Origin: an uncultured bacterium
GTDB lineage: Bacteria > CSSED10-310
Assembly (NCBI GenBank): GCA_964512995.1
Contig: CAZELM010000002.1
Location: 18,637 to 82,636 of the forward strand
Direction: 5' to 3'
DNA: 64,000 nt
This document shows positions 1 through 14,287 of the stretch, piece by piece (the stretch's first letter is position 1; every line of letters starts with the position of its first letter). Under the pieces are notes generated by a model. That model saw only the letters and a program-made list of their open reading frames with translations, searched no databases and was not told the origin of the DNA. A program made the position numbers and the translations under genes.

Positions 1-753
1 GAGTGACAATCGGTTGATTTTCGCTGCCATGCAACCAGCGCCATATCCATTGTCGATGTTCACAACCGACACGCCATTGGCGCAACTGTTCAGCATACCC
101 AGCAAGGCAGCCAACCCATGAAAACTGGCTCCATAACCAATACTGGTCGGAACAGCGATCACCGGCGCGGGAGTCAGTCCGCCGACGACACTGGGCAAGG
201 CGCCTTCCATGCCTGCCACGACCACAATCACGTTGGTGGACTGGAGCCTGTGGAAATGACTCAATAACCGGTGGATACCCGCGACACCGACATCAAATAT
301 CCGCTCCACCTGATTACCCATCAGTTCCGCCGTGATCGCGGCCTCCTCTGCCACCGGAATATCGGATGTGCCAGCGGTTATGACTAAAATCCCCGGATGC
401 CGCGTCTCCGGATGATTTGACTCCACAAACAGAATCCGCGCTATCGGGTGATATTGAACGGCTGGAATGGATTCCTTGATCAGGAGATGGACGGCTGGAT
501 CGATTCGCGTTGCCAATACATTCCGATTGTTTTCCATGAGCCGCAGGAGCAGCTCCCGAATCTGTTCCGGAGTCTTTCCGAGACCAAAAATAACCTCCGG
601 AAACCCGGTCCGGATGGCCCGATGATGATCGAGATGAGCATACCCGTTCAGGGCTTCATAAGGGAATGTTTTCAGTTGGTCCAGGATATCACCCAGTGAA
701 ATATCTCCCGTGCGGTAACGTTCGAGCAGATCAATCAATCGTTTTTGTTCCAT
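1..753 (-). CDS. larB: LarB-like (PurE/AIR-carboxylase family) nickel-pincer cofactor biosynthesis protein, partial; the C-terminus runs off the window start.
   Basis: Minus-strand ATG at 751-753. The frame stays open to position 1. The translation begins MEQKRLIDLLERYRTGDISLGDILDQL and later contains VPVIAVPTSIGYGASF and IDNGYGAGCMAAKINRL, which are PurE/LarB-like motifs. It is absent from the ORF track because it has no in-window stop. Confidence 0.6.
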   Translation of the reverse strand, partial: MEQKRLIDLLERYRTGDISLGDILDQLKTFPYEALNGYAHLDHHRAIRTGFPEVIFGLGKTPEQIRELLLRLMENNRNVLATRIDPAVHLLIKESIPAVQYHPIARILFVESNHPETRHPGILVITAGTSDIPVAEEAAITAELMGNQVERIFDVGVAGIHRLLSHFHRLQSTNVIVVVAGMEGALPSVVGGLTPAPVIAVPTSIGYGASFHGLAALLGMLNSCANGVSVVNIDNGYGAGCMAAKINRLSL

Positions 754-964
754 GGTGAATCTTGTTCAGTGTTAATTGTTACAGCCAATAATACCAAAAG
801 CAGAATATCAGAGATTATTGGATGAGAGAACTTTTTTCACACCGTTTCAATCCGTGTCCATCCGTGGTTTGTTTTTTCTTTTCCGGTGAGGAGTCTCACA
901 CGAAGACGCGAAGACACGAAGACACGAAAAAATCCATACTTACAATATGTGAGAGTGATACAAC

Positions 965-997
965 AATTCCCGGACAGAAACGATCTGCCCGGGAATT
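965..997. terminator. Perfect 9-bp inverted repeat (aattcccgg-N15-ccgggaatt) followed by a T-rich tract; a possible weak or bidirectional terminator.
   Basis: Read directly: the two arms are exact reverse complements, and gtttctttcc follows on the plus strand. It lies between the 3' end of the giant minus-strand gene (1021) and the larB start. No clean U-tract exists for the minus strand. Confidence 0.3.
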
Positions 998-1020
998 GTT
1001 TCTTTCCGGCCGAGTGCCGG

Positions 1021-4000
1021 TTATCTTCTCGTCACTGATACGATCAGGAAGAGCGAGATCGCTGCCAGCATCAGGAAAATGCCCGATGGCGATGATGCCG
1101 GGATATATTCCATGATGGGAGTCGGTGTCGGACCCGTCTCATAACAGTAATCATAAATCCGTACATTATCCAGAAATACCATCGGCTCAAACCGATCATC
1201 CGGTTCAGGATAATGGACCGTTACGGGGAAGAAGGAGAAGAACCGTATGGATACGACCTGATCTCCAGCAAGTTGTTCCAATGGAAGACTCACATGGAAA
1301 TAATCATCCTGCTCGTCAACGACCGTATAGATATCATAGACCAGAGCACTGCCGTGAGCTTCCACCAGGAACATATCCTGATCCGTGATCCGGTCGCCTT
1401 TCTTCTGGGGACCGACGAAGTTCTTCAGCCGGACGTAGAAATCCAGAACGGCACTGCGGCGGATAGGTTCCGCGAAATTTACGGTCATCATGAGTTGCGC
1501 TTCATTGATTCCGTAACCGGTATCTTCCATACACCCTGCAAAGAATGCACAACTCCCGCCACTGAATGAATAGTTGACATCCTCCAGCACTCGGAGCCCC
1601 CATGTCGGACCGGATGTATCCTCCCAATGACTCAGCGATCCACCCTCAAATCCATCGTAGAAGACCACGCCAGGAATACAGGTCGGTGTGGGAGTGGGAG
1701 ATGGTGTCGGAGTCGGTGTATCCACACACTCCCCAATATGAATCCCCGGATCGGGTATCGGCTGCTGAACGGGAGTCCCCTGGTAATCAACATACCGGAT
1801 ATTGGAGTCTGAGCATTCGATCAGAGTATCCGATGAAAGCGGAACATCCGGAGAAACATGTACCTGGAAATTCACGTCAATGCTCTCCCCCACTCGTAAT
1901 CGGTCGAAATGCCAGATATATCGCCGCGGATCATCTGCAGAGGCAGTGGGAACGACGGTTGGAGCGACATTCCAGGAACCGGGAACAATATCCGTATACA
2001 CATTACTGCCATCCGGACACTGATGTGAAGCGCCACCAAACACTTCCTCGACATAGATATCTTTCCCCGCGAGATTGTTGATTACATCCGCCGCAATTTC
2101 CTGATACACATCCGCCAGATCATCCTCAGTCGGAGACCAGTAGTAGTTGCCGTGTTTGGCGGCTTCGGGAGTCGGCACAGAACCCCAATATTCCGGGTTG
2201 AATGGATCGGCAATCTCCCGCAACAGATCTTCGTTTATCAAAGTTCCCAGACCGATCGTATGGATCGTGGTGGCATACACCGATGCATAGTCACCCCAGG
2301 GTTGACTCAGCGAGATATGCCGAGCCATTTCACGGGCATGATCGATCGCATCATTGTCCCAGCCAGGAACATCTGCTGGTCCTGGAGTATAGAACCGGTT
2401 TGGACTCCGGTCTGAAAGCACGACCATGAATCGGTCGCCACGATGAGCAGGGGCAGGCGTCGGTGGAACCGGTGATCCTTCGGGTGTTGGCGGAGCGGGA
2501 TGGATGGGCATTGCACCGATGACATTTTTCGCATAATGCATTCCCGGTCCCAGTGCTCGAGCTCCACCCAAGGGTTCCTGAGACAGATGATCATGCCACC
2601 AGAATTGTTTATGCTGCGGGTCATCGGGATCATCCAGCACCCGCTGAACCGGTTCCGGCATCTCGTCCGGGAACACCCGCGGTACAGGATTGTATCCCGG
2701 CACTCCATTCGGAGACTGGGAATTGCCATAGAATACCAACCCACCGTAATCCTGAGAGCCGTAGATCGGAGGATTTTCCACCAGATAATCATAGAACTTC
2801 CAGGTTCCCCACAAAACATGAACATAGGGCCGATATGCGGTATCCAGATAGGGATCTTCTCCGATTGGCCCGTATGGCGGTTCTTCAAATTCATTGTATC
2901 CGGATTCAAATTGAAGCAATGTGTCGCTTTTAGCTACCACACACACCACATCCACCGGCTGGCGGATATACCGGATCGATCCGTCACTCGTGAGCGTCAA
3001 CCGAACCTGCAGGTTGTCATCCGGACAAATCGTACCACTGCTCAGATTTTCTTTAATGATGCGAATCCGCGGTGGTTCGATTGTGATGGGTGTGGGAGTC
3101 CCTTCAGGGGTATCGGTCGGGACTGGCGTATTTGTCGGCGTATTGCTGGGGGTCGGGGTTTGTGTCGGTGTGAGTGTTGGAGAAGGCGTTGGTGTACGCG
3201 TCGGCGAGTTGGTCGGAGTATTCGTGGGAGTCGGAGTATCAGTTGGTGTCTGGGTGGGCGTACTGGTCGGAGTGTTGGTTGGAGTCTGAGTTGGGGTATT
3301 CGTCGGGGTTCTGGTTGGTGCATTGGTGGGGGTTTCTGTCGGCGTATTTGTTGGCGTATTCGTCGGCGTATGGGTCGGTGTATTGGTTGCCGTCGGCGTT
3401 GCAGTGGGCGTATTCGTTGAAGTCGGCGTCATTGTCGACGTGTTCGTCGGTGTTGGGGTTTGGGTTGGCGTGTTCGTCGGTGTCGGGGTCCATGTCGGCG
3501 TATGGGTGAATGTCGGGGTTAATGTCGGAGTCTGCGTCGGCGTATTCGTCTCCGTCGGAGTCTGTGTTGGTGTGTTTGTAGGCGTTGGGGTCCATGTCGG
3601 TGTATTGGTGAATGTCGGGGTCCATGTCGGTGTCTGCGTCGGCGTGTTGGTCTCCGTTGGTGTCTGGGTTGGTGTGTTCGTCGGAGTGGGTGTTGATGTA
3701 GGCGTATTGGTCGGCGTTGGGGTACTGGTGGGGGTTTGGGTTGGCGTATTAGTCGGCGTCGGCGTCCATGTCGGCGTATTGGACGGCGTTGGCGTTTGCG
3801 TCGGGGTGTTGGTTGGCGTCCCGGTTGGAGCTCCGGTTGGCGTATTGGTCGGGGTGTTGGATGGTGTGGGGGTCTGGGTCGGAGTATCCGTGGGGGTACT
3901 CGTCGGTGTGTTTGTCGGTGTATTGGTTGGAGTAGGTGTCTGGGTTGGGGTGTCTGTTGGAGTGTCCGTGGGGGTATTGGTGGGCGTCGGTGTCGGTGTA

Positions 4001-5271
4001 TCGGTCGGAGTCTGGGTTGGAGTTGGCGTTGCAGTGGGTGGTTCGGGAGTGGGTGTATAGGTCGGTGGGATCGGCGTGGCTGTCGGTGTCCAGGTCGGCG
4101 GGATCGGTGTCGGTGTCAATGTCGGCGTATCAGTTGGAGTTGGTGTATCGATGGGAGTATTGGTGGGCGTGGGTGTAGATGTGGGAGTATTGGTGAAGGT
4201 TGGGGTATGAGTTGGTGTATGCGTTGGAGTTGGCGTTGATGTGGGAGTATTGGTTTCGGTCGGAGTGGAAGTGGGTGTGTTGGAAGGTGTGGGGGTAATC
4301 GTTGGTGTGTTGCTGGGTGTGCCAGTGGGAGCACCTGTTGGAGTTGAGGTGGGAGTATTTGATGGTGTCGGTGTTAAAGTCGGCGTGTTGGTATTCGTCG
4401 GAGTGAAAGTGGGAGAATTCGTGGGAGTCGGTGTTCGAGTGGGTGTATTGGTGGGTGTGGGAGTATTCGTTGGAGTATTCGTTGGCGTCGGCGTGAATGT
4501 CGGTGTGTTGGTGTTCGTTGGCGTCCGGGTGGGGGTATTGGTCGGAGTTCGCGTCGGGGTTCGTGTCGGGGTTTGCGTGGGCGTGTTGGTCGGTGTATTG
4601 GTCGGTCCAGCCGGCGTTGGTGTATCGTCGATCCACCATCCCGCCCGGATGATCGCATCCCGGGTCAAACCCATGTTCTCGCCCCAGTTATAGTTTGGAA
4701 TACACGTGAACGAATCAATATCCTCAATCAGGTATTTATGAAAAGTTAAACCGGCCAGATTGTCCGTACATGGTTTGACCAGATCATTCATATGAAAGGG
4801 AAATGAACCAAAATTAGTAACCCTGATTACCAACCGGTCACCAAAGCTCAATGAAATCGGATACCCAATACCCCAGTCCCGCAAATCCAACGCATAGAAT
4901 CCACTGGAATTATAGACAATAACGGGATTCGGGGAAGGATTGGATGGAGAACTCAGGATTGGCTTTCCCTGCGCATCCAGCGGTGGATTCTTGTAATACC
5001 TGACCACATACTCATAATCCATCGGATTGCCAAACAACATGACACCAATGTGAGTGATCGTAACGGGTGCTCCAGCGGTATACGTCACAATCACAGAGTC
5101 TCCTGTTCCACAGGATAAATATTCGGAATTGATATTATTCAGATAAAAAAATGGCTGAGCATCAGACCATCCATCGTACTGGAAGTACCAGTAATACCCG
5201 GCTCGGGTGCTGACTGGTAAAAAAAACAAAAAACACAATACCATAACACCGAATAAAGCTTTGAACCGCAT
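1021..5271 (-). CDS. Giant (1416 aa) secreted surface protein. It has an N-terminal signal peptide, a roughly 510-aa Thr/Pro-rich linker, a C-terminal globular region and a C-terminal sorting-signal-like tail.
   Basis: Uninterrupted 4.25-kb ORF. The N-terminus [28 protein letters not shown] is a classic signal peptide. The C-terminus [26 protein letters not shown] has the motif / TM helix / basic-cluster architecture of a PEP-CTERM or PGF-CTERM sorting signal. Confidence 0.8.
3095..4623 (-). repeat. Coding tandem repeat of about 1.5 kb encoding (T-P-T-x-T-P)n with a hexapeptide period; low-complexity and GT-rich on the plus strand.
   Basis: The protein runs from [19 protein letters not shown] to [20 protein letters not shown]. 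The plus-strand DNA is built from degenerate ggtgt/ggcgt/gtcgg units. Four long antisense ORFs on the plus strand (VGV repeats) are artefacts of the periodicity. Confidence 0.85.
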
Positions 5272-5471
5272 GGTAAGCTCCTATTCCTGGAAATAAACAA
5301 ACAATGTTGCCGATGGGTGCTGACCGGTATGTTCCTCCCTGCCTCTCACCAGCTCCCTATAATAGTATTTAATCTCTAAGCATGAATAAATGTCAAGTAA
5401 TCGGGAGCATGAATGGTCGAATTGTTAATAACTGTAGAGTATATCACACAATCACACATAACAGTGATCGG

Positions 5472-6980
5472 ATGGTGTTGACACAAACCAATAGACTCGG
5501 TAGATTCCACAGGATTTCGTTGAACGGGAGGTTGCCATTGAAGGTTACTGATAAAATTTTCCAGGATGGGCTGACATTTGATGACGTGACGCTGATACCG
5601 GCCGAGTCCGATGTATTACACACCCATGTCGATACTTCAACGATTCTGACACATGAATTGACATTGAACATCCCGATCATCAGTGCGCCGCTCAACACGG
5701 TGACAGAATCCCGAATGGCGATCGCCATCGCCCGGATCGGCGGAATGGGTATCATCCATCACGGGATGTCTCCACAGGATCAGGCCGATGAAGTTGACAA
5801 AGTCAAAAGATCGGAAAGCGGAATGATCCGGGACCCCGTTACCCTGAAACCAGATCAATCCATCCGGGCTGCCATCGAGCTGATGAATCAGTTTCAGATT
5901 TCAGGGATACCCATAACGGAAAATGGTATTCTGATCGGAATCATCACCAATCGGGATCTGCGCTTTGAACCGGATCTCAACCGCCCGATCCGCGACCTGA
6001 TGACCAGTCAGAACCTGATCACGGTCCGGGAAGGAACCAGTCTGGAATCCGCCAAAAAAATCCTCCAGACACATCGCATTGAAAAACTACCGGTTGTCGA
6101 TGATCAGAACCGGCTGAAAGGTCTGATCACAATCAAAGATATCCGCAAAAAAGAGACATTTCCGCACTCAACCAAAGATCCGCTGGGACGGCTTCGCGTT
6201 GGCGCATCGGTCAGCGCTGGCTCCGATCTGATCGATCGTGTCAATGCCCTGGTTTCGGTCAAGACCGATCTCATCTGTATCGATGCCCCACACGCTCATT
6301 ATAAAGGCGTATTGAAAGCGGTGGAGTGGGTGAAAAACCACTATCCCGACCAGATCGTCATGGCCGGAAATGTCGTTACCCGGGAAGGCGCTGACGCGCT
6401 TATTCAGGCTGGAGCGGACATCATCAAAGTGGGCTTTGGATTTACCAGCACCACCACATCCTTTCTGACTGGAGTTGCTGTGCCTCAGATCACCGCCATT
6501 CTGAATGTCTATGAAATCGCCGGTAAACATAACAAAACGATCATCTCCCACAGCCCCATCCGATCTCCGGGTGATCTCTGCAAAGCATGTGCAGCCGGCG
6601 CTCATGCCGTCATGATCGGTTCAATGCTGGCAGGAACCGATGAATCCCCCGGAGATATCACGATGTATCAGGGACGTTCATTCAAAGTGTTTCGCAAATC
6701 CGATCCGATTCATTCCATCCGATACGATTCTGTATATCCGGATATTCCGTTCGAACCGGACGTGAAATCGATGGGAATGGATGAGGCAGACAAACGGGTC
6801 CCCTATATCGGATCCTGTGATGGCATCATTCGGCAATTTACCAGCGGACTCAAAATGAGTATGAGCTACTGCGGGTGTAAACATTTAAAGGAATTCCGGG
6901 AAAAAACCCGGTTTATCCGGATAACCGATTGTCACCGGGATCACGCCAGAATCACCGCACCGGGAGCCATCTCCGGATAG
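5472..6980 (+). CDS. IMP dehydrogenase-fold protein (TIM barrel plus CBS pair) lacking the canonical catalytic Cys loop; likely a divergent or non-catalytic IMPDH paralog.
   Basis: Motifs FDDVTLIPAESDV, GIIHHGMS, VPQITAI and AGAHAVMIGSMLAGTDESPG resemble GuaB. The loop VGFGFTSTTTSF replaces VGIGPGSICTTR, and SHSPIRSPGD replaces ADGGIRYSGD. The track ORF begins at 5382; I prefer the ATG at 5472, which is nearer the conserved N-terminus. Confidence 0.7.
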   Translation: MVLTQTNRLGRFHRISLNGRLPLKVTDKIFQDGLTFDDVTLIPAESDVLHTHVDTSTILTHELTLNIPIISAPLNTVTESRMAIAIARIGGMGIIHHGMSPQDQADEVDKVKRSESGMIRDPVTLKPDQSIRAAIELMNQFQISGIPITENGILIGIITNRDLRFEPDLNRPIRDLMTSQNLITVREGTSLESAKKILQTHRIEKLPVVDDQNRLKGLITIKDIRKKETFPHSTKDPLGRLRVGASVSAGSDLIDRVNALVSVKTDLICIDAPHAHYKGVLKAVEWVKNHYPDQIVMAGNVVTREGADALIQAGADIIKVGFGFTSTTTSFLTGVAVPQITAILNVYEIAGKHNKTIISHSPIRSPGDLCKACAAGAHAVMIGSMLAGTDESPGDITMYQGRSFKVFRKSDPIHSIRYDSVYPDIPFEPDVKSMGMDEADKRVPYIGSCDGIIRQFTSGLKMSMSYCGCKHLKEFREKTRFIRITDCHRDHARITAPGAISG

Positions 6981-7117
6981 AATCCACTTGACTCATCACC
7001 ATTCAGCAACCATTTTCCGGTGGTACGAAAGAATCAGCTTGCACATACCCACAATGATCTGCGCCCGTTCAATCCATCGGATCTCTTAATCTTTCTTTTC
7101 ATCGATGAGGTGTAACC

Positions 7118-7978
7118 ATGATCATTCCCTTCACGAAACTGCACGGACTGGAAAATGACTATCTGTTTATCGATCTTTTCACACATCCATCCCTTCCTGA
7201 AGACCGCATACCCGGTATTGCCCGTCGGATGAGCCATCGCCGGAGAGGCATCGGAGCCGATGGCATTGTGCTCTGGGGTCCTTCCCGCGAAGCGGATGCG
7301 ATGATGCGGATCTTCAACTCGGACGGTTCGGAAGCCGAAACCTGCGGAAATGCTCTGCGATGCGTCGCAAAGCTGCTGTGGGAAAACGGTCATGCCACCC
7401 GCTCCCGGATCGTTATCCAGACCCGTGCCGGATGTGTCCATGCAACTGTCGTAATGCAGGATGGCCGCGTTCATGCCATCGATATCGACATCGGAAAACC
7501 CCGCTGGAGCCGCTCCGACCTTCCGATGACCGGTCACGGCGAAGCCCGTCGGATCGAACTTACGATCCAGGACACCCATTTCGATGCCACCTGCCTTTCC
7601 GTGGGAAATCCCCATTGTGTCCTCTTCGTGGAGCATCCATCCAAAGATCTGATCCTCCAAATGGGGCCACTCATCGAACATCACGAATGGTTCCCACAGG
7701 GCATCAATGTCGGATTTTGTCACGTGCTCAATCCCCATCAGATCGAGTTGACCGTCTGGGAACGCGGAGCCGGACTGACTGCTGCGTGTGGTACGGGAGC
7801 GGCAGCCGCATTCGCAGCTTCCCGGTACCGGAATCGGGTGGAACGCTCTACGGAAATCCAGATGCCCGGCGGCAGTCTGATGCTCCAGGAAACTCCAAAT
7901 GGACATCTCCATATTATTGGTCCTGCCACACGGGTGTTTGATGGGTATTGGGAGGAGGATATGACTCTTGACGCATGA
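7118..7978 (+). CDS. dapF: Diaminopimelate epimerase.
   Basis: N-terminus FTKLHGLENDYLFID. Both catalytic Cys motifs are present (ETCGNALRCV and ACGTGAAAAFA). The 286-aa length is typical of DapF. Confidence 0.9.
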   Translation: MIIPFTKLHGLENDYLFIDLFTHPSLPEDRIPGIARRMSHRRRGIGADGIVLWGPSREADAMMRIFNSDGSEAETCGNALRCVAKLLWENGHATRSRIVIQTRAGCVHATVVMQDGRVHAIDIDIGKPRWSRSDLPMTGHGEARRIELTIQDTHFDATCLSVGNPHCVLFVEHPSKDLILQMGPLIEHHEWFPQGINVGFCHVLNPHQIELTVWERGAGLTAACGTGAAAAFAASRYRNRVERSTEIQMPGGSLMLQETPNGHLHIIGPATRVFDGYWEEDMTLDA

Positions 7979-8138
7979 CCGGTCGAAGAAATGCTCCCAT
8001 TTTTCCTTTCGGTAAAAAATTCTACTTCTAATCGGTAAGTTTATATCAAAAAACAGAATAAAAACAGTTATCAATAGCCGTTACCGATCGTTCTGATCTG
8101 ATCCACAGCCACCTCCGCTTATAACAACAGGTCGCACC

Positions 8139-9197
8139 TTAAGAACCTAAAATCTCCTGCTCCCACAAGTTTTCCACAGCGGATTTGGAAAAGTCCGAGA
8201 GCCGATGGCGCTGGCCTTTCAGTACCGCATCCCGTACATGCGTATCGGTGACGAGCACATGCATCAGCTCCGCCAACTCCACCATATTCGTCTTATTCCG
8301 AAACAGGACACCGCTCGAACCCAATGTCCACGGCACCGCAGCCGCACGATAGGCTAGAATCGGGAGATCGAAATACATGCTTTCCACCAGCGGAACACCG
8401 AATCCTTCATGATCGCTCATAGAAACAAACAGATGTGCCAGTCTGTAATACGTCACCAGCTCCCCGAATTCAACATGACCCGGAATGTACACATCACCCA
8501 GATGCCATTGCCGAGCCATCCGGACCAGATGATCGTAATACGATTCGAACCCATCCCATTTCCCGATCAGAAACAACCGGCAACGCCTGTTGACGAAGCG
8601 TTTATAATACGCATACAGCCGAAGGAGATCATGCTGGCATTTATTGGGCGTGATCCGGCCGACAAACAGAACATTCGTGAAATCCCCCCGAAACATCTCC
8701 GCGAGAACCGGATTGACGGGGATATCGAACAGATCGAAATCGATATATATCGGCAAAACCCCCGTGTTCGTAAAATCCATTTCCTGCAGTTCCAGCCGGT
8801 TAAATTCCGAATCTCCCAAAGCCCGGTGGGGCACATCCCGAAGGTGTGCAAGTTCCTCCCGGCCGATCCGGGATATTCGCTGGAGATGGGGGTATCCCCG
8901 CAACTGGTGGACTGGTGTGATATTGTGATACACGAGAATCCGTCGGCCCGTTGCAGCGCGAAAAATCTGATTCAATGACGACGGCAGCGCGTAATGGAGA
9001 ATCGTCACGCTGTCCGGCCGGTTCAGTTCGGGAAATCCACTCACCGGTGTCGGACTGACCGGCACATCGGCATCTTTCTGGAGACAGATGATATGCGATT
9101 CATGGCCGATCGACTGAAAATACCGGTGCATGGCCATGGCATTGTTCCCGATCGCGTCCCCGTCATGCAAAGCCGGAAGAAGCTGGATGATCTTCAT
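8139..9197 (-). CDS. Glycosyltransferase family 4 (GT-B).
   Basis: Contains the EGFGVPLVESM (E-x7-E) GT4 motif and a KCQHDLL region. It is a tandem paralog of the next gene and overlaps it in ATGA fashion at 9194-9197. Confidence 0.8.
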   Translation of the reverse strand: MKIIQLLPALHDGDAIGNNAMAMHRYFQSIGHESHIICLQKDADVPVSPTPVSGFPELNRPDSVTILHYALPSSLNQIFRAATGRRILVYHNITPVHQLRGYPHLQRISRIGREELAHLRDVPHRALGDSEFNRLELQEMDFTNTGVLPIYIDFDLFDIPVNPVLAEMFRGDFTNVLFVGRITPNKCQHDLLRLYAYYKRFVNRRCRLFLIGKWDGFESYYDHLVRMARQWHLGDVYIPGHVEFGELVTYYRLAHLFVSMSDHEGFGVPLVESMYFDLPILAYRAAAVPWTLGSSGVLFRNKTNMVELAELMHVLVTDTHVRDAVLKGQRHRLSDFSKSAVENLWEQEILGS

Positions 9198-10258
9198 GTC
9201 CCGAGCTTCCCGATCAGTTCGTTGACCCGCTGGCGCATGTCCATGGCCAGGAAGGCGGACAGGTGGTTCTGCTGCTTGCGGACCACGGCTTCTTTGAATG
9301 ATGGATTCCGGCGGAGCAGATCGGCGATCTCCGCAATCACTGCCGGGTTCTTGTCGTGAATCTGAATCCCGGCATCGCCCATTGTCTCGGATACCGCTCC
9401 AGCCTTGTACGCGATTACCGGAACATCAAAAACCATCGCTTCGAGGAGCGGCACACAGAATCCCTCGTGTTCGCTCATGCATACGAACACATCGGCCATG
9501 CGATACAGAGCGACCAGCTCATCGTCATCGACCATACCGGTGAAGATGACATTGGCTACACCCAGTTCCCGAACCATGGCAGACATGGCATCCGCATACC
9601 GCCAGCAGTTCCGGACGTCACCGACCAGTATCAACCGTGCATTGGGATCCAGATGCCGCTGGTAAAATGCAAAGGAACGGATGATATCCTGATGGCATTT
9701 ATTGGGAGATACCCGGCCGACGAAGAGCCAGGTTCGCTGACGGGATGCGAACTGGGTCTGGAACACGCGGTTCGGCGTCAGGGATAGCCGGCTCAGATCC
9801 ACAATGATCGGCAGAACCTCCACATTGCGATATCCGATGTCGTTCAGGATGCCGGCATTGAAGGTCGAATCCGCCCAGGCGAATGCCGTACGATCTTTGA
9901 GTTTCCGAAGCTGAATCATTCCCTGAGCAGCCAGTTCCGTCATTTGCGGACTGATTCCGTAAAACCAATGCGCGGGTGTGATATTGTGAAAGATGATTCC
10001 CAGCCGGTCTGGAATCGTCATCAGATAATCGGTAATCTCCGATCCCACGGAAAAGTGGTATATCAATATGTGATCGGCCTGACTGATCCGGCGATATAGC
10101 TTCCAGTGTTCCGACTGATCAATCAGATAGGGATGAATGACACCGGCATAGATCCGGCTCTCATGCCCCAGCGACCGGAAAATATCCCGCAGTGCCAGTG
10201 TGTCGTCGCCGATGGCATCCCCATAAGAAAAATTGGGGAGCATCTGATGGATGATCAC
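9194..10258 (-). CDS. Glycosyltransferase family 4 (GT-B); paralog of 8139..9197.
   Basis: Contains EGFCVPLLEAM. Its N-terminus MIIHQMLPNFSYGDAIGDD is similar to MKIIQLLPALHDGDAIGNN in the neighbouring gene. Confidence 0.8.
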   Translation of the reverse strand: MIIHQMLPNFSYGDAIGDDTLALRDIFRSLGHESRIYAGVIHPYLIDQSEHWKLYRRISQADHILIYHFSVGSEITDYLMTIPDRLGIIFHNITPAHWFYGISPQMTELAAQGMIQLRKLKDRTAFAWADSTFNAGILNDIGYRNVEVLPIIVDLSRLSLTPNRVFQTQFASRQRTWLFVGRVSPNKCHQDIIRSFAFYQRHLDPNARLILVGDVRNCWRYADAMSAMVRELGVANVIFTGMVDDDELVALYRMADVFVCMSEHEGFCVPLLEAMVFDVPVIAYKAGAVSETMGDAGIQIHDKNPAVIAEIADLLRRNPSFKEAVVRKQQNHLSAFLAMDMRQRVNELIGKLGT

Positions 10259-11370
10259 GGATGAGCCTCCGGCAATGGCGTGCCCGGCGTTCCGGAAGGA
10301 ACGGATTCCGCCGCAGGTTCGTTTCCCGGTGTCTGATCGGTCGCGGGAGTTGACTCCGAAATGGATTCCCCGGTGGCGGTTCCATCGTCAACCGAGGATT
10401 CTGTTGTAGCCGTTGGTGGGGGCGGGGGTTCGACGTATTTCCCCGTCATCACGATACCGGTGATCTTCCACTCCGATACCTCCCACTCCTGAGTCGGATC
10501 GACCCGGTCCGCCTGGATGAACAGGGAGATCAACACATCCCCGGTCAGATCCCGCCAGTGGGCACTGGCAAACTGATAGTCCAGGACATCATCGCGAATC
10601 TGGTCATGCCGATGTTCCCACTCCCCCGGCGGATTGGATTGAAAAATCCGCGATACATCGGTATACGTCGGGGATTTGAAATAATCGGCATAAAAGGCAT
10701 AGATGGAGCGATCATCGGCGGGTACCCGCATCTCGAACCGTCGGCCCAGCGCAATCCGCGGATCCATGGTATCGGAATCGAGTTCCTGCGCGTTGGGAGG
10801 GAGCGGCAATTCGATGTCTTTCGCGATGCGATACCATTGAGAGAAATGAATCGACGCCCATGATGCCGTATTGATCACGATCATGAACCCGACAATACCC
10901 GCCGTTACTTTGAACAACATCCCGTCAAACTCCGGTTTGGGACGTTTTTCCTGGGAAATCTTGCCGATCCAAGCACCGACAATCCAGATCGCCGTCCCTC
11001 CGATCCACGACATCCATGACATCGGATCTCCCAGCCAGTTCCATGGATCATTCATGAAAAAAATCTGGTAGAAAACAGGAAGCCCGGCGTTGAGGAACCC
11101 AGCGATCACCCAGATCACCGGAGATTCCGTGAAAAGGAGTCTGCCGATCAGAAATCCACCGCCAAGAAATGCGATGACATTGGGAATCAAAAGAAGCACT
11201 TCCGGTTTTTTTTCGCCTGCAACATCCCGCAATGCATACAACAATCCGAAAAATAAAATACCGTGAAGAATCTGCGCGCTCAGTATCGACAGGATCGATA
11301 TCCCCACATTCTTGACGCTTCTCGTTTGATAAAATGGTATTTTGCTCATAATCGTGTCACCTGATTTCAT
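10255..11370 (-). CDS. Polytopic membrane protein (about 5 TM) with an extracytoplasmic domain and a Pro/Thr/Ser-rich C-terminal tail; function unknown.
   Basis: Hydrophobic helices occupy the first 170 aa. The C-terminus is PPPPPTATTESSVDDGTATGES. The gene sits inside the GT4 operon with 4-nt overlaps on both sides. Confidence 0.55.
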   Translation of the reverse strand: MKSGDTIMSKIPFYQTRSVKNVGISILSILSAQILHGILFFGLLYALRDVAGEKKPEVLLLIPNVIAFLGGGFLIGRLLFTESPVIWVIAGFLNAGLPVFYQIFFMNDPWNWLGDPMSWMSWIGGTAIWIVGAWIGKISQEKRPKPEFDGMLFKVTAGIVGFMIVINTASWASIHFSQWYRIAKDIELPLPPNAQELDSDTMDPRIALGRRFEMRVPADDRSIYAFYADYFKSPTYTDVSRIFQSNPPGEWEHRHDQIRDDVLDYQFASAHWRDLTGDVLISLFIQADRVDPTQEWEVSEWKITGIVMTGKYVEPPPPPTATTESSVDDGTATGESISESTPATDQTPGNEPAAESVPSGTPGTPLPEAHP

Positions 11371-12539
11371 GATTTCATCCGATGAATGAGATTCTCATAT
11401 TTTGTCTCGATCACCGGCCAGTTGTAATGTGTCTGATAATACGCTCGACCCATCCGGCCCATCTGGTCCGCGATCTCCCGGTTGGTGACAAGATAGGTCA
11501 GGCACGCCGCAAATTCCTCATAATTTCTGTAAAACAACCCCCCATTGGATCGCCGGCATTGCCCCTCCAGAACTTCACATTTCGCATTGACCAGCACAGG
11601 CCGGGCCACTCGCCACGACTCGAGCAGAACCATGGACAGGCTTTCAAAAGGACTGGGCATCACCAGTAACTGCGTCCGTTCCAGTGCCCGTTGTTTGGCG
11701 GATTCGTCCACAAATCCCAGATGCCGGATTCGGGGATGGTCCGGGATGGGAATCACGCTGGAGCCGATCAGTGCCAGGTTAAGGGCTCTCTTTTCCGTCT
11801 GGATGTATCGCTGGAACATCCGGAAAAGATGATCGCAGCCTTTGTTTTTATCGATCCGGCCGACGTAAATGATGTATGGGTCGATAGCATCGAGAACCGC
11901 CTGAAATCCATAATCCGGCGCTGGGAGATCCGGTTGTTCGACCAGTCCGACCCCCACAATATCACTGGGAATCGTTTCATTTTTTGCGAGTTGCTGGATC
12001 AGGCATTTTTCTTCGTGGGAGTTGTAAGCAATGGCTCCCGGCAGATTGAATATTCCGGTGAAAATACTCAGATGAAGCGCCGGATCATGCTCGGCGGTCG
12101 GCACCAGCAGTGCTTTGGAGCGCACAGCCCGGAGGCATTCCACGGTGGTCCAGTACCGATAACTGAACAGGATCCAGACATCGATATCCGACCGGTGGCG
12201 GATGGCTTTCACCAGCGCGGGACAATAGGGACCATTCTGCCGGATCCATTCCAATTGATGCACCTCGGGCTGAGGCGCATGAAACACCAGATTCTGAATG
12301 CTCTCGAAGCGCCGGATGTTGCGCTGGTGTCTGACGGGGAACCGGTGAACCGGAACGTCATTGATGAGAACCGTTCCCTGGTGGTATTCGTTTTTCCATG
12401 TGACATAATCCCGTGCACAGGTTGTGAAGACTTCCACCGGATACCGCCGGCGCAGATGTTCGGCCACCAACCGGCAATGAAGCTCCGCTCCGCCGGAAAT
12501 ATCCAGGCCGTACCGTTGGATTACACACCCGATTTTCAT
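11367..12539 (-). CDS. Glycosyltransferase family 4-like (GT-B).
   Basis: MKIGCVIQRYGLDISGGAELHCRLVAEHL and ESLSMVLLESW. I place the start at the internal M (12539) by analogy with its paralog; the track ORF extends to 12572. Confidence 0.75.
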   Translation of the reverse strand: MKIGCVIQRYGLDISGGAELHCRLVAEHLRRRYPVEVFTTCARDYVTWKNEYHQGTVLINDVPVHRFPVRHQRNIRRFESIQNLVFHAPQPEVHQLEWIRQNGPYCPALVKAIRHRSDIDVWILFSYRYWTTVECLRAVRSKALLVPTAEHDPALHLSIFTGIFNLPGAIAYNSHEEKCLIQQLAKNETIPSDIVGVGLVEQPDLPAPDYGFQAVLDAIDPYIIYVGRIDKNKGCDHLFRMFQRYIQTEKRALNLALIGSSVIPIPDHPRIRHLGFVDESAKQRALERTQLLVMPSPFESLSMVLLESWRVARPVLVNAKCEVLEGQCRRSNGGLFYRNYEEFAACLTYLVTNREIADQMGRMGRAYYQTHYNWPVIETKYENLIHRMKS

Positions 12540-12549
12540 AGGCATCCGA

Positions 12550-13704
12550 TCAGGCGCACAGCAGTTTCTCATACTTGGCCATGATTGCCAGCCAATTATA
12601 ATGCTCCAGATAATACCGGTTTCCCTGATTACCCAGAGTGATGCACAGATCGTTTCGATGCATCAGCAACTGGAGACAGTGAAAAAACTCATCGGCATTC
12701 CGGTAATAAAGACCTCCTCCGGACCGGATACACTGGCCTTTGAGAACATCGCACTGCCCGTTGCAGAGCACTGGTTTGCAGAGTTTCCATGCTTCGAGGA
12801 CCACCATGGACAGGCTTTCCAGCCGGCTGGGCATGATCAGCGCACGAGCGTTGGCGAGGATCGCCAGTTTTTCGGCTTCGGACAGAACGCCCAGGTAATG
12901 GATATTGGCATGATCGGGCAATGGCATCTCCTGTTTCCCAATCAGAGCCAGTTCAGGACATTGAGCGGAATCGCGGAAATACCGGAGAATCAACTGAATC
13001 ATTTCCATGCATCCTTTGGCCTGCTCGATCCGGCCGATGTACAGGAAGTACGATTCCGGCAGACTGAATCTTCGGAGTATATCCGGATCATCGGATGAAT
13101 TCACGTCTGGCAAACCGACTCCCACAATCTCGCCAGGAACGTGTCCGTTCCCGGACAGATACTGGATGAGCTGGCGTTCTTCGATGGAGTTGTACGCGAT
13201 GGCTCTGGGTCGCGTCAGCGACTCCCGATGGATCGGTAGATAAATGGATCTATCATGTTCAGCCGTCGGCACCAGAATGCTCCGGGAACCATGTCGTTTC
13301 AGGAGTTGCCAGGTTGTCCAGTAGCGGAATGAGAAGAGAATCAAGCGGTCGATGTCCGATCTGGAATCGACGTAATCGATCAGTTCCGGGCAATACGGAC
13401 CGTGATCCTCCAGATACCGAATCTCTTCTTCCGGAGATGGGTAGCCGTGAAGAACGTGGAAGGCGAGGATGTCGAAGTCCGGGGACCGCTCCCGGTTCAC
13501 AGGAAACCGGTGAACCGGTATGCCGTTGACTGAACCGGTACCGGGTGCCAAGACATTTTTCCATGTCAGATAATCCATAGCGCATGTTGTGGCGATTTCG
13601 ACCTGATGCCGGCCGGCAAGGTGCTCCGCCACCAGCCGGCAATGATATTCAGCTCCTCCGACAATTTCTACTCCGTATCTTTGAACAACAAAGAGAAGTT
13701 TCAT
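12550..13704 (-). CDS. Glycosyltransferase family 4-like (GT-B); tandem paralog of 11367..12539.
   Basis: MKLLFVVQRYGVEIVGGAEYHCRLVAEHL and ESLSMVVLEAW. I chose the start at M17 (13704), which removes a 26-nt overlap with the upstream gene. Confidence 0.75.
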   Translation of the reverse strand: MKLLFVVQRYGVEIVGGAEYHCRLVAEHLAGRHQVEIATTCAMDYLTWKNVLAPGTGSVNGIPVHRFPVNRERSPDFDILAFHVLHGYPSPEEEIRYLEDHGPYCPELIDYVDSRSDIDRLILFSFRYWTTWQLLKRHGSRSILVPTAEHDRSIYLPIHRESLTRPRAIAYNSIEERQLIQYLSGNGHVPGEIVGVGLPDVNSSDDPDILRRFSLPESYFLYIGRIEQAKGCMEMIQLILRYFRDSAQCPELALIGKQEMPLPDHANIHYLGVLSEAEKLAILANARALIMPSRLESLSMVVLEAWKLCKPVLCNGQCDVLKGQCIRSGGGLYYRNADEFFHCLQLLMHRNDLCITLGNQGNRYYLEHYNWLAIMAKYEKLLCA

Positions 13705-13726
13705 GAATGACAGCCGGAAGCCGGTA

Positions 13727-14251
13727 TCAGGAGGGATCTTTGAACTGGACAAGTTTTTCCAGAGTCTTGATCCGCTTCTCCAGAAATTCCTTTTCCCGTT
13801 CGATACGATCCACCCGATTCCTGAGCGCGGAATGATCGATCTGGAGACGGGTGATTTCCCGAACCAGGTTGTGCAGAAGATGGGCGAAGTAGAGATTGAT
13901 CTGAGCCTGGCGGCCGATAAGATGATCGGTATAGAGCCGGATCACCGGTCGAACGACTTTTTTGAGCGCGACGATCAGTTTGCCTTTCAACCCGGATCGG
14001 TGGGAGGAGATGATGTAACTGGAGTTGATATTCCAGGCGTGATCCGGCGACCGGAGCCGCTCCAGTAAAACAGAATCGATATCCGCTTCCTCAGCGAACT
14101 GAAGGATCTTGGCGTCCGCCAGTTCAGCGATGCTTTCTTCGGTATAAATCCCGGCTTTCTGCTTTTCCGCAATGGCCTGACGAATCCGCTCCATGATCTT
14201 TGTCACGTCCACATCTGCGCCGATTTCAAAATTCATCCATTCATCACTCAT
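13727..14251 (-). CDS. Hypothetical coiled-coil protein.
   Basis: 174-aa ORF. Its C-terminal half (LRNRVDRIEREKEFLEKRIKTLEKL) looks like a heptad coiled coil. I recognise no known domain. Confidence 0.45.
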   Translation of the reverse strand: MSDEWMNFEIGADVDVTKIMERIRQAIAEKQKAGIYTEESIAELADAKILQFAEEADIDSVLLERLRSPDHAWNINSSYIISSHRSGLKGKLIVALKKVVRPVIRLYTDHLIGRQAQINLYFAHLLHNLVREITRLQIDHSALRNRVDRIEREKEFLEKRIKTLEKLVQFKDPS

Positions 14252-14287
14252 TCAGCAATCCTCCCGTTGAACCAAATCCAGCCGATG

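What the first reader, a model, noticed from the sequence alone, without database searches (positions are those of the whole stretch)
1021..5271. Giant secreted protein with a ~510-residue (TPTxTP)n linker and a CTERM-type sorting tail
The 1416-aa ORF has a clear signal peptide, then an N-terminal domain, then about 85 near-perfect hexapeptide Thr-Pro repeats, then a roughly 640-aa C-terminal region. It ends in [26 protein letters not shown], which has the motif / TM helix / Arg-cluster layout of exosortase or archaeosortase substrates. The tripeptide signature is neither PEP nor PGF, so this may be an undescribed CTERM variant. The Thr/Pro linker is reminiscent of the O-glycosylated Thr-rich stretch that precedes PGF-CTERM in archaeal S-layer glycoproteins.
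Basis: partly seen in the sequence, partly recalled or inferred. Interest (0 to 1): 0.75.

Follow-up and report, generated by a model that had tools for sequence, protein, structure and literature searches.

The report
Stalked surface protein with exosortase-H-type tail
This is a real 1416-residue secreted protein from the uncultured bacterial phylum CSSED10-310 whose C-terminal tail is a diverged version of a known but experimentally unstudied sorting signal (IPTL-CTERM), and the matching exosortase-H-like enzyme lies 12.5 kb away in the same window.

Summary
The ORF (1021..5271, minus strand) is real, with a good ribosome-binding site and a signal peptide. The Thr/Pro region (aa 217-729) is genuine but is a degenerate (TPTx)n, not 85 near-perfect hexapeptides.

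The C-terminal 687 aa belong to a small family of ~720-aa secreted proteins confined to candidate phylum CSSED10-310. The fold is VWA, then a beta-sandwich, then a CBM-like jelly-roll. Every full-length member ends in [IV]P[AST][ST]Sxx[GS], a TM helix and RR/RK.

A 206-aa exosortase (17725..18345) with invariant Cys/Arg/His lies in conserved synteny with the family gene. Its more distant orthologs pass NCBIfam's XrtH cutoff and sit next to unrelated proteins with IPSLSWWG or VPSLGSAG tails. The system is therefore a diverged XrtH/IPTL-CTERM system that falls below both curated thresholds.

The window protein is an aberrant member. It has an orphan N-domain and a 513-aa stalk inserted at the mature N-terminus, and a degenerate MIDAS motif. 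A second protein, probably from the same genome (P0054), carries the same CBM-plus-tail module.

Verdict: new variant of a known kind, of moderate interest. Processing, glycosylation and the number of substrates remain untested.

The parts
1021..5271 (-). Whole ORF, 1416 aa, plus stop codon (1021-1023)
   Evidence: The exact protein is on 2 independent contigs in 2 samples.
5278..5282 (-). Shine-Dalgarno AGGAG, 6 nt upstream of the ATG at 5271
   Evidence: Read from the sequence.
5200..5271 (-). Sec signal peptide, aa 1-24 ([24 protein letters not shown]|G)
   Evidence: Hydrophobic segment aa 3-21. The cleavage site is inferred from the TRA|G motif.
4624..5199 (-). Orphan N-terminal domain, aa 25-216, predicted mostly beta
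   Evidence: No Pfam, NCBIfam or PHROG hit. No homolog among 5.8e9 proteins, in the PDB or in any fetched locus. Not related to the family core (hhalign probability 0.2%). The single-sequence AF2 model is unreliable (pLDDT 39.6).
3085..4623 (-). 513-aa Thr/Pro stalk, aa 217-729, a degenerate (T-P-T-x)n
   Evidence: It is inserted where homologs have only Q-TPTP-P(H/Y)I after their signal peptide.
2080..3084 (-). Family core part 1, aa 730-1064: short beta element plus a VWA (integrin I-like) domain. MIDAS is degenerate: AKSDT 780-784, R905, D954.
   Evidence: AF2 model of the core, pLDDT 70.4. Foldseek hits: PitA 7w6b 3.3e-12, VWA 4fx5 4.4e-12, SpaC 6m3y 1.7e-10, integrin beta. MIDAS comparison.
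1723..2079 (-). Beta-sandwich domain, aa 1065-1183
   Evidence: Strands at 338-450 of the core model. Same domain order as the pilus-tip adhesins.
1678..1722 (-). Short TP linker 2 ([13 protein letters not shown], aa 1185-1197), conserved in the family
1141..1677 (-). CBM-like beta-jelly-roll, aa 1199-1377, ending in the conserved EPMVFLD...DYCY
   Evidence: Foldseek: CBM61 2xom TM 0.71, rmsd 3.3; also CBM16, CBM4-2, CBM27 and the gingipain K3 adhesin domain. Weak sequence echo to 2xom.
1105..1140 (-). Pre-tail Pro/Thr linker ([11 protein letters not shown])
   Evidence: Conserved PTPTPTP stretch before the tail in all members.
1024..1104 (-). 27-aa tripartite sorting tail: IPASSPSG (1081-1104), TM helix [16 protein letters not shown] (1033-1080), TRR (1024-1032)
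   Evidence: Helix 666-686 in the core model. Same 27-residue length as the TIGR04174 profile.
17725..18345 (-). XrtH-like short exosortase, 206 aa; invariant C98, N136, R139, H158
   Evidence: PF09721 28.8 bits (GA 25.7). TIGR04178 46.1 bits (cutoff 23); XrtH 63.4 bits (cutoff 86). 24-sequence alignment. Synteny.
17011..17658 (-). hyp215: conserved polytopic membrane protein immediately downstream of the exosortase, a candidate partner
   Evidence: Adjacent in all 8 CSSED10-310 loci, with overlapping stop/start in L010 and L014. A homolog follows a bona fide XrtH in L085 (E 2.8e-9). No Pfam or NCBIfam family. Not homologous to the exosortase.

Best explanation
The ORF encodes a Sec-exported cell-surface protein of a diderm CSSED10-310 bacterium. 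It is a substrate of a dedicated, or few-substrate, exosortase system derived from exosortase H.

Shown here:
- A signal peptide and a C-terminal motif/helix/Arg tail.
- A conserved family with that tail.
- A catalytically intact XrtH-like exosortase in conserved synteny.
- Related tails on unrelated proteins next to bona fide XrtH genes.
- The same CBM-plus-tail module on a second, differently built protein.

Inferred by homology with ArtA and sortase:
- After export, the C-terminal helix and TRR hold the protein in the inner membrane.
- The exosortase's Cys98 attacks within or just after the IPASSPSG motif, releases the helix and forms a thioacyl intermediate.
- The enzyme transfers the new C-terminus to an unknown acceptor (a lipid amine or a glycan). 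The co-operonic membrane protein hyp215 may help.

Inferred from anatomy:
- The mature protein is tethered by its C-terminus, with the CBM-like domain nearest the anchor, followed by the beta-sandwich and the VWA domain.
- In this protein the VWA domain has lost its metal site.
- A ~513-residue, probably extended and possibly O-glycosylated, Thr/Pro stalk of order 100 nm carries an orphan beta-rich domain at its tip. The protein would then act as a long-reach adhesin.
For: Gene model.

Family and tail:
- 10 homologs at 37-46% identity, all ~715-740 aa with their own signal peptides. All full-length ones have the tail.
- Tail consensus with an invariant Pro.
- P0050, P0054, P0055 and P0059 carry it too.

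Enzyme:
- Pfam and NCBIfam family thresholds are met.
- C98, R139 and H158 are invariant in 24 orthologs.
- At least 4 hydrophobic segments.

Linkage:
- Conserved block XRT, hyp215, S41..., GT1 x4, DapF, IMPDH, substrate in the window, L010 and L012. L014 has the same block, with the substrate cut by the contig end.
- Contig-length matches for P0021/P0005, P0022/P0006 and P0042/P0008.
- Enzyme and substrate occur on different contigs of the same assembly for P0016/P0050.

Signal class:
- P0044, P0047 and P0048 pass the XrtH cutoff, while the CSSED10-310 clade scores 80, 71 and 63 bits.
- In L085 a 958-aa choice-of-anchor-J protein ending IPSLSWWG-TM-KRIK lies directly upstream of XrtH.
- In L086 a 738-aa protein has VPSLGSAG-TM-RRRR and scores 19.2 bits against a 20.5 cutoff on IPTL_CTERM.
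- The family tails give weak hits only to midcut_by_XrtH and IPTL_CTERM, plus a single GG_III-CTERM hit.

Fold: adhesin-like VWA plus beta-sandwich plus CBM-like domain.

Diderm host: OMP beta-barrel protein and LpxL; PMC8248873.

Mechanism by analogy: ArtA Cys-173 thioester model, PMC7157517.

Criteria for dedicated systems: bioRxiv 10.1101/2023.06.07.544157, section 5.
Against: - No experiment of any kind exists for XrtH or IPTL-CTERM. Cleavage, acceptor and final location are all inferred.
- The target's tail hits no curated sorting-signal model, and its enzyme fails the XrtH cutoff (63.4 against 86).
- The target lacks the helix-end Pro present in 11 of 12 aligned tails, so it could be a poorer substrate or not a substrate at all.
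- Enzyme and substrate are 12.5 kb apart and are separated by housekeeping genes and a GT cassette that is not system-specific. In L007, L008 and L011 the synteny breaks after the GT cassette.
- The enzyme and the family are both phylum-wide, so their co-occurrence could partly reflect shared ancestry.
- Whole genomes could not be scanned, so the number of substrates is unknown.
- How an exosortase substrate would cross the outer membrane is unknown.
Confidence: 0.7

Rival explanations
1. The tail is a plain stop-transfer (type I) membrane anchor. The protein stays in the inner membrane uncleaved, and the nearby exosortase serves other substrates.
For: A hydrophobic helix followed by RR is by itself a generic anchor. 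The target hits no sorting-signal HMM and lacks the helix-end Pro. The enzyme is not adjacent to the gene (12.5 kb away).
Against: - A conserved motif with an invariant Pro sits immediately before the helix in 16 of 16 sequences seen.
- The 27-residue layout equals the IPTL-CTERM model length.
- No other tail-bearing ORF was found near the enzyme in 14 CSSED10-310 loci.
- Unrelated proteins with related tails lie beside bona fide XrtH genes.
- The module is shared by a different architecture, P0054.
Confidence: 0.13
2. The N-terminal domain plus giant TP stalk is an assembly or gene-model artefact: a chimeric join inside low-complexity TP-coding DNA. The real protein would be an ordinary ~720-aa family member.
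For: Every other full-length family member lacks the extension. The N-domain has no homolog anywhere. A second TP-linker gene with similar repeats probably exists in the same genome (P0054). The assemblies are probably short-read, though this was not checked.
Against: - The identical 1416-aa protein is on 2 contigs from 2 samples.
- The repeats are only 65-81% identical at the DNA level, so they can be assembled.
- The 5' end (RBS, signal peptide, N-domain) sits next to the divergent IMPDH gene, exactly where family members start.
- The core has no signal peptide of its own, so it needs the upstream one.
Confidence: 0.05
3. It is an S-layer-type glycoprotein processed in the ArtA/PGF-CTERM manner, or a classical EPS-linked PEP-CTERM protein tied to the neighbouring glycosyltransferase cluster.
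For: A Thr/Pro stretch precedes the tail. Four GT1 genes lie between the enzyme and the substrate. A PMT/PMT_2-like GT-C gene abuts the substrate gene in 5 genomes.
Against: - No PEP-CTERM or PGF-CTERM hit.
- The enzyme scores 19 bits on archaeosortase A (cutoff 75) and does not hit XrtA at all.
- The hyp174 plus GT1 cassette recurs in 33-63 loci from other phyla (mainly Acidobacteriota and Aminicenantes) without the enzyme or the substrate.
- The fold is adhesin-like and not a lattice former.
Confidence: 0.05
4. The tail is processed by a different membrane protease (rhombosortase, CPBP/myxosortase-type, or the nearby S41 C-terminal peptidase) and not by the exosortase.
For: An S41 peptidase is part of the conserved block.
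Against: The motif has no GlyGly and no invariant Cys. An invariant Cys is shared by the four myxosortase-type signals (MYXO-, JDVT-, Synerg- and CGP-CTERM). S41/Ctp enzymes are soluble tail-specific proteases (established knowledge). No rhomboid or CPBP gene was found among the window genes scanned.
Confidence: 0.03

Closest known systems
Exosortase H (XrtH, TIGR04177) with the IPTL-CTERM / IPTLxxWG sorting signal (TIGR04174) and 'midcut-by-XrtH' proteins (NF033207)
   Same: - A short (~160-200 aa) exosortase with the Cys/Arg/His signature.
- Orthologs of the window enzyme at 41-47% identity pass the XrtH cutoff.
- The tail has the same 27-residue tripartite layout and shares I-P-x-x-S-x-x-G.
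- XrtH-associated models are the only signal HMMs that give weak hits, apart from a single GG_III-CTERM hit.
- Few substrates, encoded nearby.
   Different: - The window enzyme scores 63.4 bits against a cutoff of 86. XrtX (63.7) and archaeosortase B (63.2) tie with XrtH.
- The tail has [AST][ST] where IPTL has T-L, lacks the Trp, and usually has a Pro three residues before the basic cluster.
- No family tail reaches the 20.5-bit cutoff.
- The host is CSSED10-310.
Archaeosortase A / PGF-CTERM S-layer glycoprotein of Haloferax volcanii
   Same: Same enzyme superfamily. A tripartite C-terminal signal preceded by a Thr-rich stretch. The proposed Cys-thioester cleavage and re-anchoring mechanism is borrowed from it (PMC7157517).
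   Different: The motif differs (PGF against IPxxS). The enzyme scores 19 bits against a cutoff of 75. The host is a bacterial diderm. The fold is an adhesin, not an S-layer protein. Lipid attachment is not shown here.
Sortase-anchored pilus-tip adhesins with VWA domains (PitA 7w6b, SpaC 6m3y, GBS104 3txa)
   Same: These are the best structural matches: a VWA domain embedded among beta-sandwich domains, with a C-terminal sorting signal processed by a Cys transpeptidase.
   Different: About 10% sequence identity. They use LPXTG and sortase in Gram-positive bacteria. They keep a functional MIDAS, whereas the window protein has A780, T784 and R905 at ligand positions. They have no CBM-like anchor-proximal domain and no TP stalk.
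Pro/Thr-rich linkers of secreted bacterial glycoside hydrolases and O-mannosylated actinobacterial proteins (established knowledge, not tested here)
   Same: Composition (T 46%, P 27%), and PMT/PMT_2-family GT-C genes next to the family gene in 5 genomes.
   Different: A length of 513 aa is far beyond typical 20-60-aa linkers. Glycosylation is not shown. The GT-C gene in the window (36337..38070) is only ~24% identical to those neighbours.

Membership tests
Exosortase/archaeosortase superfamily (enzyme at 17725..18345) | Score above the curated family thresholds (PF09721 GA 25.7; TIGR04178 signature cutoff 23) | tested here: met
   28.8 bits and 46.1 bits.
Exosortase/archaeosortase superfamily (enzyme at 17725..18345) | Conserved active-site Cys plus a conserved Arg (and His) in a polytopic membrane protein | tested here: met
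   C98, N136, R139 and H158 are invariant in 24 orthologs. At least 4 hydrophobic segments. The catalytic role of the Cys is taken from ArtA (PMC7157517).
Exosortase H (XrtH, TIGR04177) | Score at or above the curated cutoff of 86 bits | tested here: not met
   Window enzyme 63.4 bits. CSSED10-310 orthologs P0042 80 and P0022 71.1. Distant orthologs P0044 96.8, P0047 98.6 and P0048 91.6 pass.
Exosortase X, exosortase Y, archaeosortase B, XrtF, XrtM, ArtE | Score at or above each model's curated cutoff | tested here: not met
   XrtX 63.7 against 170. ArtB 63.2 against 150. XrtY 48.3 against 160. XrtF 28.8 against 90. XrtM 29.8 against 125. ArtE 34 against 95.
IPTL-CTERM sorting domain (TIGR04174) | HMM score at or above 20.5 bits | tested here: not met
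   The target tail gives no hit at E<=10. 2 of 12 family tails hit, with a best E of 0.14. The L086 neighbour of a true XrtH scores 19.2 bits.
IPTL-CTERM sorting domain (TIGR04174) | IPTLxxWG signature, then a TM helix, then a basic cluster, ~27 residues at the C-terminus | tested here: inconclusive
   The layout and the 27-residue length match. I, P, S5 and G8 are shared. T-L is replaced by [AST][ST], and W7 is absent.
Tripartite C-terminal sorting signal (criteria in bioRxiv 10.1101/2023.06.07.544157, section 5) | Criteria 1, 4, 5 and 6: at the extreme C-terminus, a hydrophobic helix, 2-5 basic residues, and an N-terminal signal peptide | tested here: met
Tripartite C-terminal sorting signal (criteria in bioRxiv 10.1101/2023.06.07.544157, section 5) | [quoted passage not shown] | tested here: inconclusive
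   The Pro is invariant. [IV] at position 1 and [ST]/[SG] at positions 4-5 are conserved by class only. A second near-invariant Pro lies at the end of the helix.
Tripartite C-terminal sorting signal (criteria in bioRxiv 10.1101/2023.06.07.544157, section 5) | Criteria 2 and 7: several occurrences per genome on otherwise unrelated proteins. [quoted passage not shown] | tested here: inconclusive
   Nearby co-occurrence is seen in 4 genomes. A second architecture, P0054, is probably from the same genome (tetranucleotide r 0.977), but it shares the CBM-like domain as well as the tail. Whole genomes could not be scanned.
PEP-CTERM / PGF-CTERM | PEP or PGF signature and an HMM hit | tested here: not met
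   No hit in Pfam or NCBIfam on the whole protein, on the tail alone, or on 12 family tails.
VWA (von Willebrand A / integrin I-like) domain | Rossmann-like alpha/beta fold | tested here: met
   Foldseek: 4fx5 4.4e-12, PitA 3.3e-12, integrin beta subunits. The model has only moderate confidence (pLDDT 70.4). No Pfam VWA hit by sequence. NCBI names homologs 'VWA domain-containing'.
VWA (von Willebrand A / integrin I-like) domain | MIDAS metal site: DxSxS ... T ... D | tested here: not met
   The target has A780-K-S-D-T784, R905 and D954. All 9 aligned homologs have D[KR]SGS, T and D, and P0050 reads DESGS, T and D in its sequence.
CBM-like beta-jelly-roll (CBM61/16/4 fold) | Structural match; carbohydrate binding | tested here: inconclusive
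   Fold match to 2xom (TM 0.71, rmsd 3.3) and to other CBMs. Ligand binding cannot be tested here. The sequence hit is not significant (E 0.31).

The most novel reading that the evidence does not exclude
The CBM-like domain plus IPxxS tail is a portable anchoring cassette of a phylum-specific sorting system derived from XrtH, which needs a previously unrecognised partner membrane protein (hyp215). The window protein is a neofunctionalised member. Its ancestral metal-dependent VWA binding site has decayed, and binding has moved to a lineage-specific orphan domain displayed ~100 nm or more from the cell on a glycosylated Thr/Pro stalk.
Probability: 0.3. Interest if true: 0.6.

Novelty: new variant of a known kind. 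Interest (0 to 1): 0.45.

Why it matters
Exosortase H and its IPTL-CTERM signal are known only from curated HMMs. No paper in the searched library reports an experiment on them.

This locus offers a compact and apparently low-substrate version of the system: one enzyme, one co-operonic partner membrane protein, and one or two recognisable substrates. The host is a phylum with no cultured member. Three things follow.
1. It extends the recognisable sequence space of the XrtH/IPTL-CTERM pairing. It also shows that current cutoffs miss a whole clade. An HMM built from these tails and enzymes would improve annotation.
2. It flags hyp215 as a candidate accessory factor.
3. It provides a natural experiment in surface-protein remodelling: a conserved adhesin-like scaffold has gained a very long stalk and an orphan tip domain while losing its MIDAS site.

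None of this changes how exosortases are thought to work. It is an incremental addition to a known class.

Tried and rejected
- Whole-protein and per-domain Pfam and NCBIfam scans gave nothing significant.
- N-domain:
  - Word-indexed homology search: 0 hits.
  - PDB phmmer: nothing.
  - PHROGs: nothing.
  - hhalign against the family core: probability 0.2%.
  - Single-sequence AF2 gave pLDDT 39.6, so I did not fold-search it.
- Exact-sequence look-ups of two other window proteins, meant to annotate the window cheaply, failed.
- hyp215 as a diverged exosortase paralog: rejected (hhalign probability 1.3%).
- The GT1 cluster as part of the sorting system: rejected as specific evidence. The hyp174 plus GT1 cassette recurs in 33-63 loci from other phyla (mainly Acidobacteriota and Aminicenantes) without the enzyme or the substrate.
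- The window PMT_2 gene (36337..38070) as the ortholog of the GT-C gene that abuts the substrate elsewhere: only ~24% identity.
- Metagenome scan with the CBM-plus-tail module. The first alignment was too divergent and the second found nothing. A scan with the exosortase alignment gave 9 short loci with no further tail-bearing neighbours.
- Haft 2012 (PMC3256604) is not held in the library.
- I ran no further search on a tail-only profile. About 30 bits cannot reach significance against 1.8e9 proteins. The full-core profile was used instead.
- The exact-sequence cluster look-up of the target itself said 'not in collection', although the encoding-contig look-up found it. This discrepancy is unexplained.

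Full report

Yes, in outline. A single 1416-aa ORF runs from 5271 to 1021 on the minus strand. An AGGAG lies 6 nt upstream of its ATG. The protein has just two strongly hydrophobic segments: the N-terminal signal peptide and the C-terminal helix. The identical protein is called on two contigs from two samples.

The Thr/Pro region spans aa 217-729, with 235 Thr and 141 Pro among 513 residues. It is not '85 near-perfect hexapeptides':
- Autocorrelation peaks at lags 4, 10 and 20.
- Tandem Repeats Finder sees periods of 12, 30, 36, 60, 72 and 102 nt, mostly at 66-81% match. It finds no 18-nt period.
- About 100 [TS]P[TS]x tetrapeptides tile 400 residues, against only 45 TPTxTP units.
- All four Thr codons are used evenly, so the repeat is kept by selection on the protein and not by recent slippage.

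The tail reads IPASSPSG (1390-1397), [16 protein letters not shown] (1398-1413), TRR.

**2. What is the protein?**

Pfam and NCBIfam give nothing significant on the whole protein or on its parts. A homology search with the C-terminal 687 aa found ten proteins at 37-46% identity. Nine are full-length, ~715-740-aa stand-alone proteins with their own signal peptides, and one is a contig-end fragment. Some are named 'VWA domain-containing protein' from candidate division CSSED10-310.

A full HMMER profile search of 1.84 billion representatives found only about six full-length representatives plus fragments. The family is therefore small and phylum-restricted. CSSED10-310 is an uncultured, predicted Gram-negative sister phylum of Acidobacteriota (PMC8248873). 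An OMP beta-barrel gene and an LpxL-type gene in the window agree with a diderm envelope.

An AlphaFold model of the core, built with the family alignment, has a mean pLDDT of 70.4. It shows, in order:
- a VWA-type alpha/beta domain
- a beta-sandwich
- a short TP linker
- a beta-jelly-roll
- a second short linker
- a terminal helix

Foldseek's best PDB matches are sortase-anchored pilus-tip adhesins (PitA 3.3e-12, SpaC 1.7e-10, GBS104), a bacterial VWA protein (4fx5, 4.4e-12) and integrin beta I-like domains. The jelly-roll matches CBM61 (2xom, TM 0.71), CBM16, CBM4-2 and a gingipain adhesin domain. The core therefore looks like an adhesin.

**3. The tail is a conserved sorting-signal-like domain, but its signature is not PSG.**

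All twelve aligned family tails share [IV]-P-[ASTV]-[ST]-[SG]-x-x-[GS]. A helix follows that usually ends P-phi-phi, and then come two basic residues. The motif Pro is invariant. The same tail appears in P0050, P0055 and P0059. It also appears in P0054, a 1406-aa protein with an unrelated N-terminal ~1000 residues.
- P0054 has an unrelated N-terminal region with PF01345 repeats.
- It then has a ~200-aa TP linker that shares the odd [15 protein letters not shown] element with the window protein.
- It ends with the same CBM-like domain and IPAMSAAG-helix-P-LRKW.
- It comes from the sequencing run adjacent to the one that yielded the window protein.
- Its flanking DNA has the highest tetranucleotide correlation to the window of any locus (r = 0.977).

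It is therefore probably a second carrier of the module in the same or a very close genome. This is an inference, not a proof.

**4. The enzyme.**

Scanning the window's other genes found a 206-aa protein at 17725..18345 (minus strand).
- It passes Pfam Exosortase_EpsH (28.8 bits against 25.7).
- It passes the NCBIfam exosortase/archaeosortase signature (46.1 bits against 23).
- Thirty-five orthologs exist. In a 24-sequence alignment, C98, N136, R139 and H158 are invariant.
- No named subfamily cutoff is met: XrtX 63.7 against 170, XrtH 63.4 against 86, ArtB 63.2 against 150.
- Scores on the XrtH model rise steadily through the orthologs, from 63.4 to 71.1 and 80 within CSSED10-310. Orthologs at 41-47% identity score 91.6, 96.8 and 98.6, which pass the cutoff.

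The window enzyme is therefore a diverged offshoot of exosortase H.

**5. Linkage of enzyme and substrate.**

Loci were anchored on a gene midway between the two. They show a conserved block: helicase, hyp295, exosortase, hyp215, S41 peptidase, (SDR), hyp174, GT1 x2, hyp371, GT1 x2, DapF, IMPDH, substrate.
- The exosortase is at its place in all seven CSSED10-310 loci that reach that far.
- Enzyme and substrate are both seen in the window, L010 and L012. L014 has the same block, with the substrate cut by the contig end.
- Contig lengths tie P0021 to P0005, P0022 to P0006 and P0042 to P0008.
- One assembly holds the two genes on separate contigs.
- In L007, L008 and L011 the synteny breaks after the GT cassette.
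- Across all 14 CSSED10-310 loci, no ORF other than this family has such a tail.

The strongest independent support comes from outside the phylum.
- In L085, a 958-aa signal-peptide protein with a choice-of-anchor-J domain lies directly upstream of a bona fide XrtH. It is unrelated to the VWA family and ends IPSLSWWG-FILTILLISVVLLI-KRIK.
- In L086, a 738-aa protein upstream of XrtH has VPSLGSAG-helix-RRRR. It scores 19.2 bits on IPTL_CTERM, against a cutoff of 20.5.
- The twelve family tails give weak hits only to midcut_by_XrtH (E 0.021) and IPTL_CTERM (E 0.14), plus a single GG_III-CTERM hit.
- The window tail is 27 residues from the Ile to the last Arg, which is the length of the TIGR04174 profile.

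In the terms of the published criteria for such signals (bioRxiv 10.1101/2023.06.07.544157, section 5), this looks like a dedicated or few-substrate system.

**6. The window protein is an aberrant family member.**
- The N-domain and the 513-aa stalk are inserted exactly where homologs have only 'Q-TPTP-P(H/Y)I' after their signal peptide.
- The N-domain has no detectable relative by any method tried. Its single-sequence model is unreliable.
- The MIDAS motif is intact in all nine aligned homologs (D[KR]SGS, T, D), and P0050 reads DESGS, T and D. In the target it reads A780-K-S-D-T784, R905, D954.
- The target lacks the helix-end Pro.
- Its 3' neighbourhood is rearranged. In five other genomes the gene abuts a ~600-aa PMT/PMT_2-like GT-C gene and two radical-SAM genes. 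Here it abuts AIRC/LarB-, NAD-synthase/LarE- and Ni-insertion/LarC-family genes.
- Its best identity to any relative is 48%.

**7. Mechanism.**

Shown: export signals, a conserved tail, a cognate-type enzyme with intact catalytic residues, and synteny.

Inferred by homology with ArtA, whose active-site Cys-173 is proposed to form a thioester that an amine resolves (PMC7157517):
- The exosortase cleaves at or after the IPxxS motif and removes the helix.
- It then joins the new C-terminus to an unknown acceptor.

hyp215 may take part. It is a polytopic membrane protein whose gene is always next to, and sometimes overlaps, the exosortase gene. It is also found after the XrtH gene of L085 (E 2.8e-9). 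The match in L086 is only tentative (hhalign E 3.5e-4). This role is speculative.

The stalk's extended conformation, its ~100-150 nm reach (513 residues at about 0.3 nm each) and its O-glycosylation are inferences from composition and from the GT-C neighbours. They are not results.

**8. What it is not.**
- It is not PEP-CTERM or PGF-CTERM.
- The four GT1 genes between enzyme and substrate are not evidence for an EPS-coupled system. The same cassette recurs in other phyla, mainly Acidobacteriota and Aminicenantes, without either gene.
- hyp215 is not a second exosortase.

**9. Novelty and score.**

The XrtH/IPTL-CTERM pairing is already catalogued in NCBIfam, though no experimental paper was found. 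This locus is a diverged variant that both curated models miss. It has a candidate accessory protein and an unusually remodelled substrate. I rate it 'new variant of a known kind', interest 0.45.

The main uncertainties are whether the tail is actually processed, the number of substrates per genome, and the true length of the stalk.

Noticed in passing
window 17011..17658 (-); also L007-L012, L014, and L085:10521-11111: A 215-aa polytopic membrane protein with no Pfam or NCBIfam family always follows the exosortase gene, with overlapping stop/start in L010 and L014. It has invariant N97, N102, P105, R120, H136, H139 and an MEQAGSM.P motif. A homolog follows a bona fide XrtH in another lineage. 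It is a candidate accessory factor for short exosortases.
   Followed up: partly
window 2920..2934, 2548..2565, 2404..2418 (aa 780-784, 903-908, 952-956): The VWA MIDAS metal site is intact in all nine aligned homologs, and P0050 reads DESGS, T and D. It is degenerate in the window protein (D to A, S to T, T to R). This suggests loss of metal-dependent ligand binding alongside the gain of the N-terminal stalk and tip domain.
   Followed up: yes
L087:10001-14221 (P0054, Logan SRR12133404): A 1406-aa protein with PF01345 (CLIPPER/DUF11) repeats and a ~200-aa TP linker that contains the same [15 protein letters not shown] element as the window protein. It has the same CBM-like domain and an IPAMSAAG tail. 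Contig composition matches the window (r 0.977). It is probably a second substrate in the same genome.
   Followed up: partly
L004:12237-14021, L005:12159-13973, L012:19076-20794, L084:3926-5770, L097:2857-4671: A ~600-aa GT-C-like gene lies convergent to and immediately after the substrate gene in five genomes, followed by two radical-SAM genes, a TPR protein and YidD. Its PMT/PMT_2 assignment rests on Pfam hits in L004 and L084 and on ~24% identity to the window PMT_2 gene in L005 and L012. In L097 it rests on position and length alone. It is a possible protein O-glycosyltransferase for the TP segments. In the window genome this block is not adjacent to the gene.
   Followed up: partly
window 8139..14251 (-): The hyp174 plus GT1 cassette, with an embedded Pfam-less 371-aa membrane protein, recurs at 35-50% identity in 33-63 loci from other phyla (mainly Acidobacteriota/Vicinamibacteria and Aminicenantes, with a few others). 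It is an uncharacterised but widespread glycosylation module.
   Followed up: partly
window 1..16000 against 16000..64000: GC content falls from 0.52 in the first 16 kb to 0.445 in the rest. The tetranucleotide correlation between the two parts is only 0.74. This may be gene-content bias (the TP-coding DNA and the GT cluster) or a sign of different histories.
   Followed up: no
L085:7020-9896 and L086:4180-6396: These proteins lie next to bona fide XrtH genes. One is a choice-of-anchor-J protein ending IPSLSWWG-TM-KRIK plus 7 residues. The other is an F510_1955-like glycosylhydrolase with VPSLGSAG-TM-RRRR followed by 28 more residues, which makes it a 'midcut'-like, non-terminal signal.
   Followed up: partly
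P0171, P0190, P0124 (hits): Unrelated proteins with tandem CBM-like 'NGGFE.G...W' domains and TP linkers end in a shared short motif: C-G-G-(PTPTP)-R-x-R-[IV]-F-L-P-[IV]-[VM]-[VL]-[KR]-x-x-x-R. This may be a different C-terminal signal. I did not identify it.
   Followed up: no
window 40836..43046 (+), 43058..43789 (-) and 46120..48006 (-): Three ORFs of 736, 243 and 628 aa have no Pfam family at E<=1e-4.
   Followed up: no
window 57395..62358 (-): Two adjacent large proteins (1074 and 580 aa) both carry PPDK_N (pyruvate phosphate dikinase ATP-binding) domains. The larger one is fused to a nucleotidyltransferase (Pol-beta-like) domain, which is an unusual combination.
   Followed up: no
window 24003..27965 (+): Three consecutive radical-SAM genes, two with B12-binding domains, are followed by an LpxL-type acyltransferase and a GT2. 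This may be a lipid or glycolipid modification cluster.
   Followed up: no
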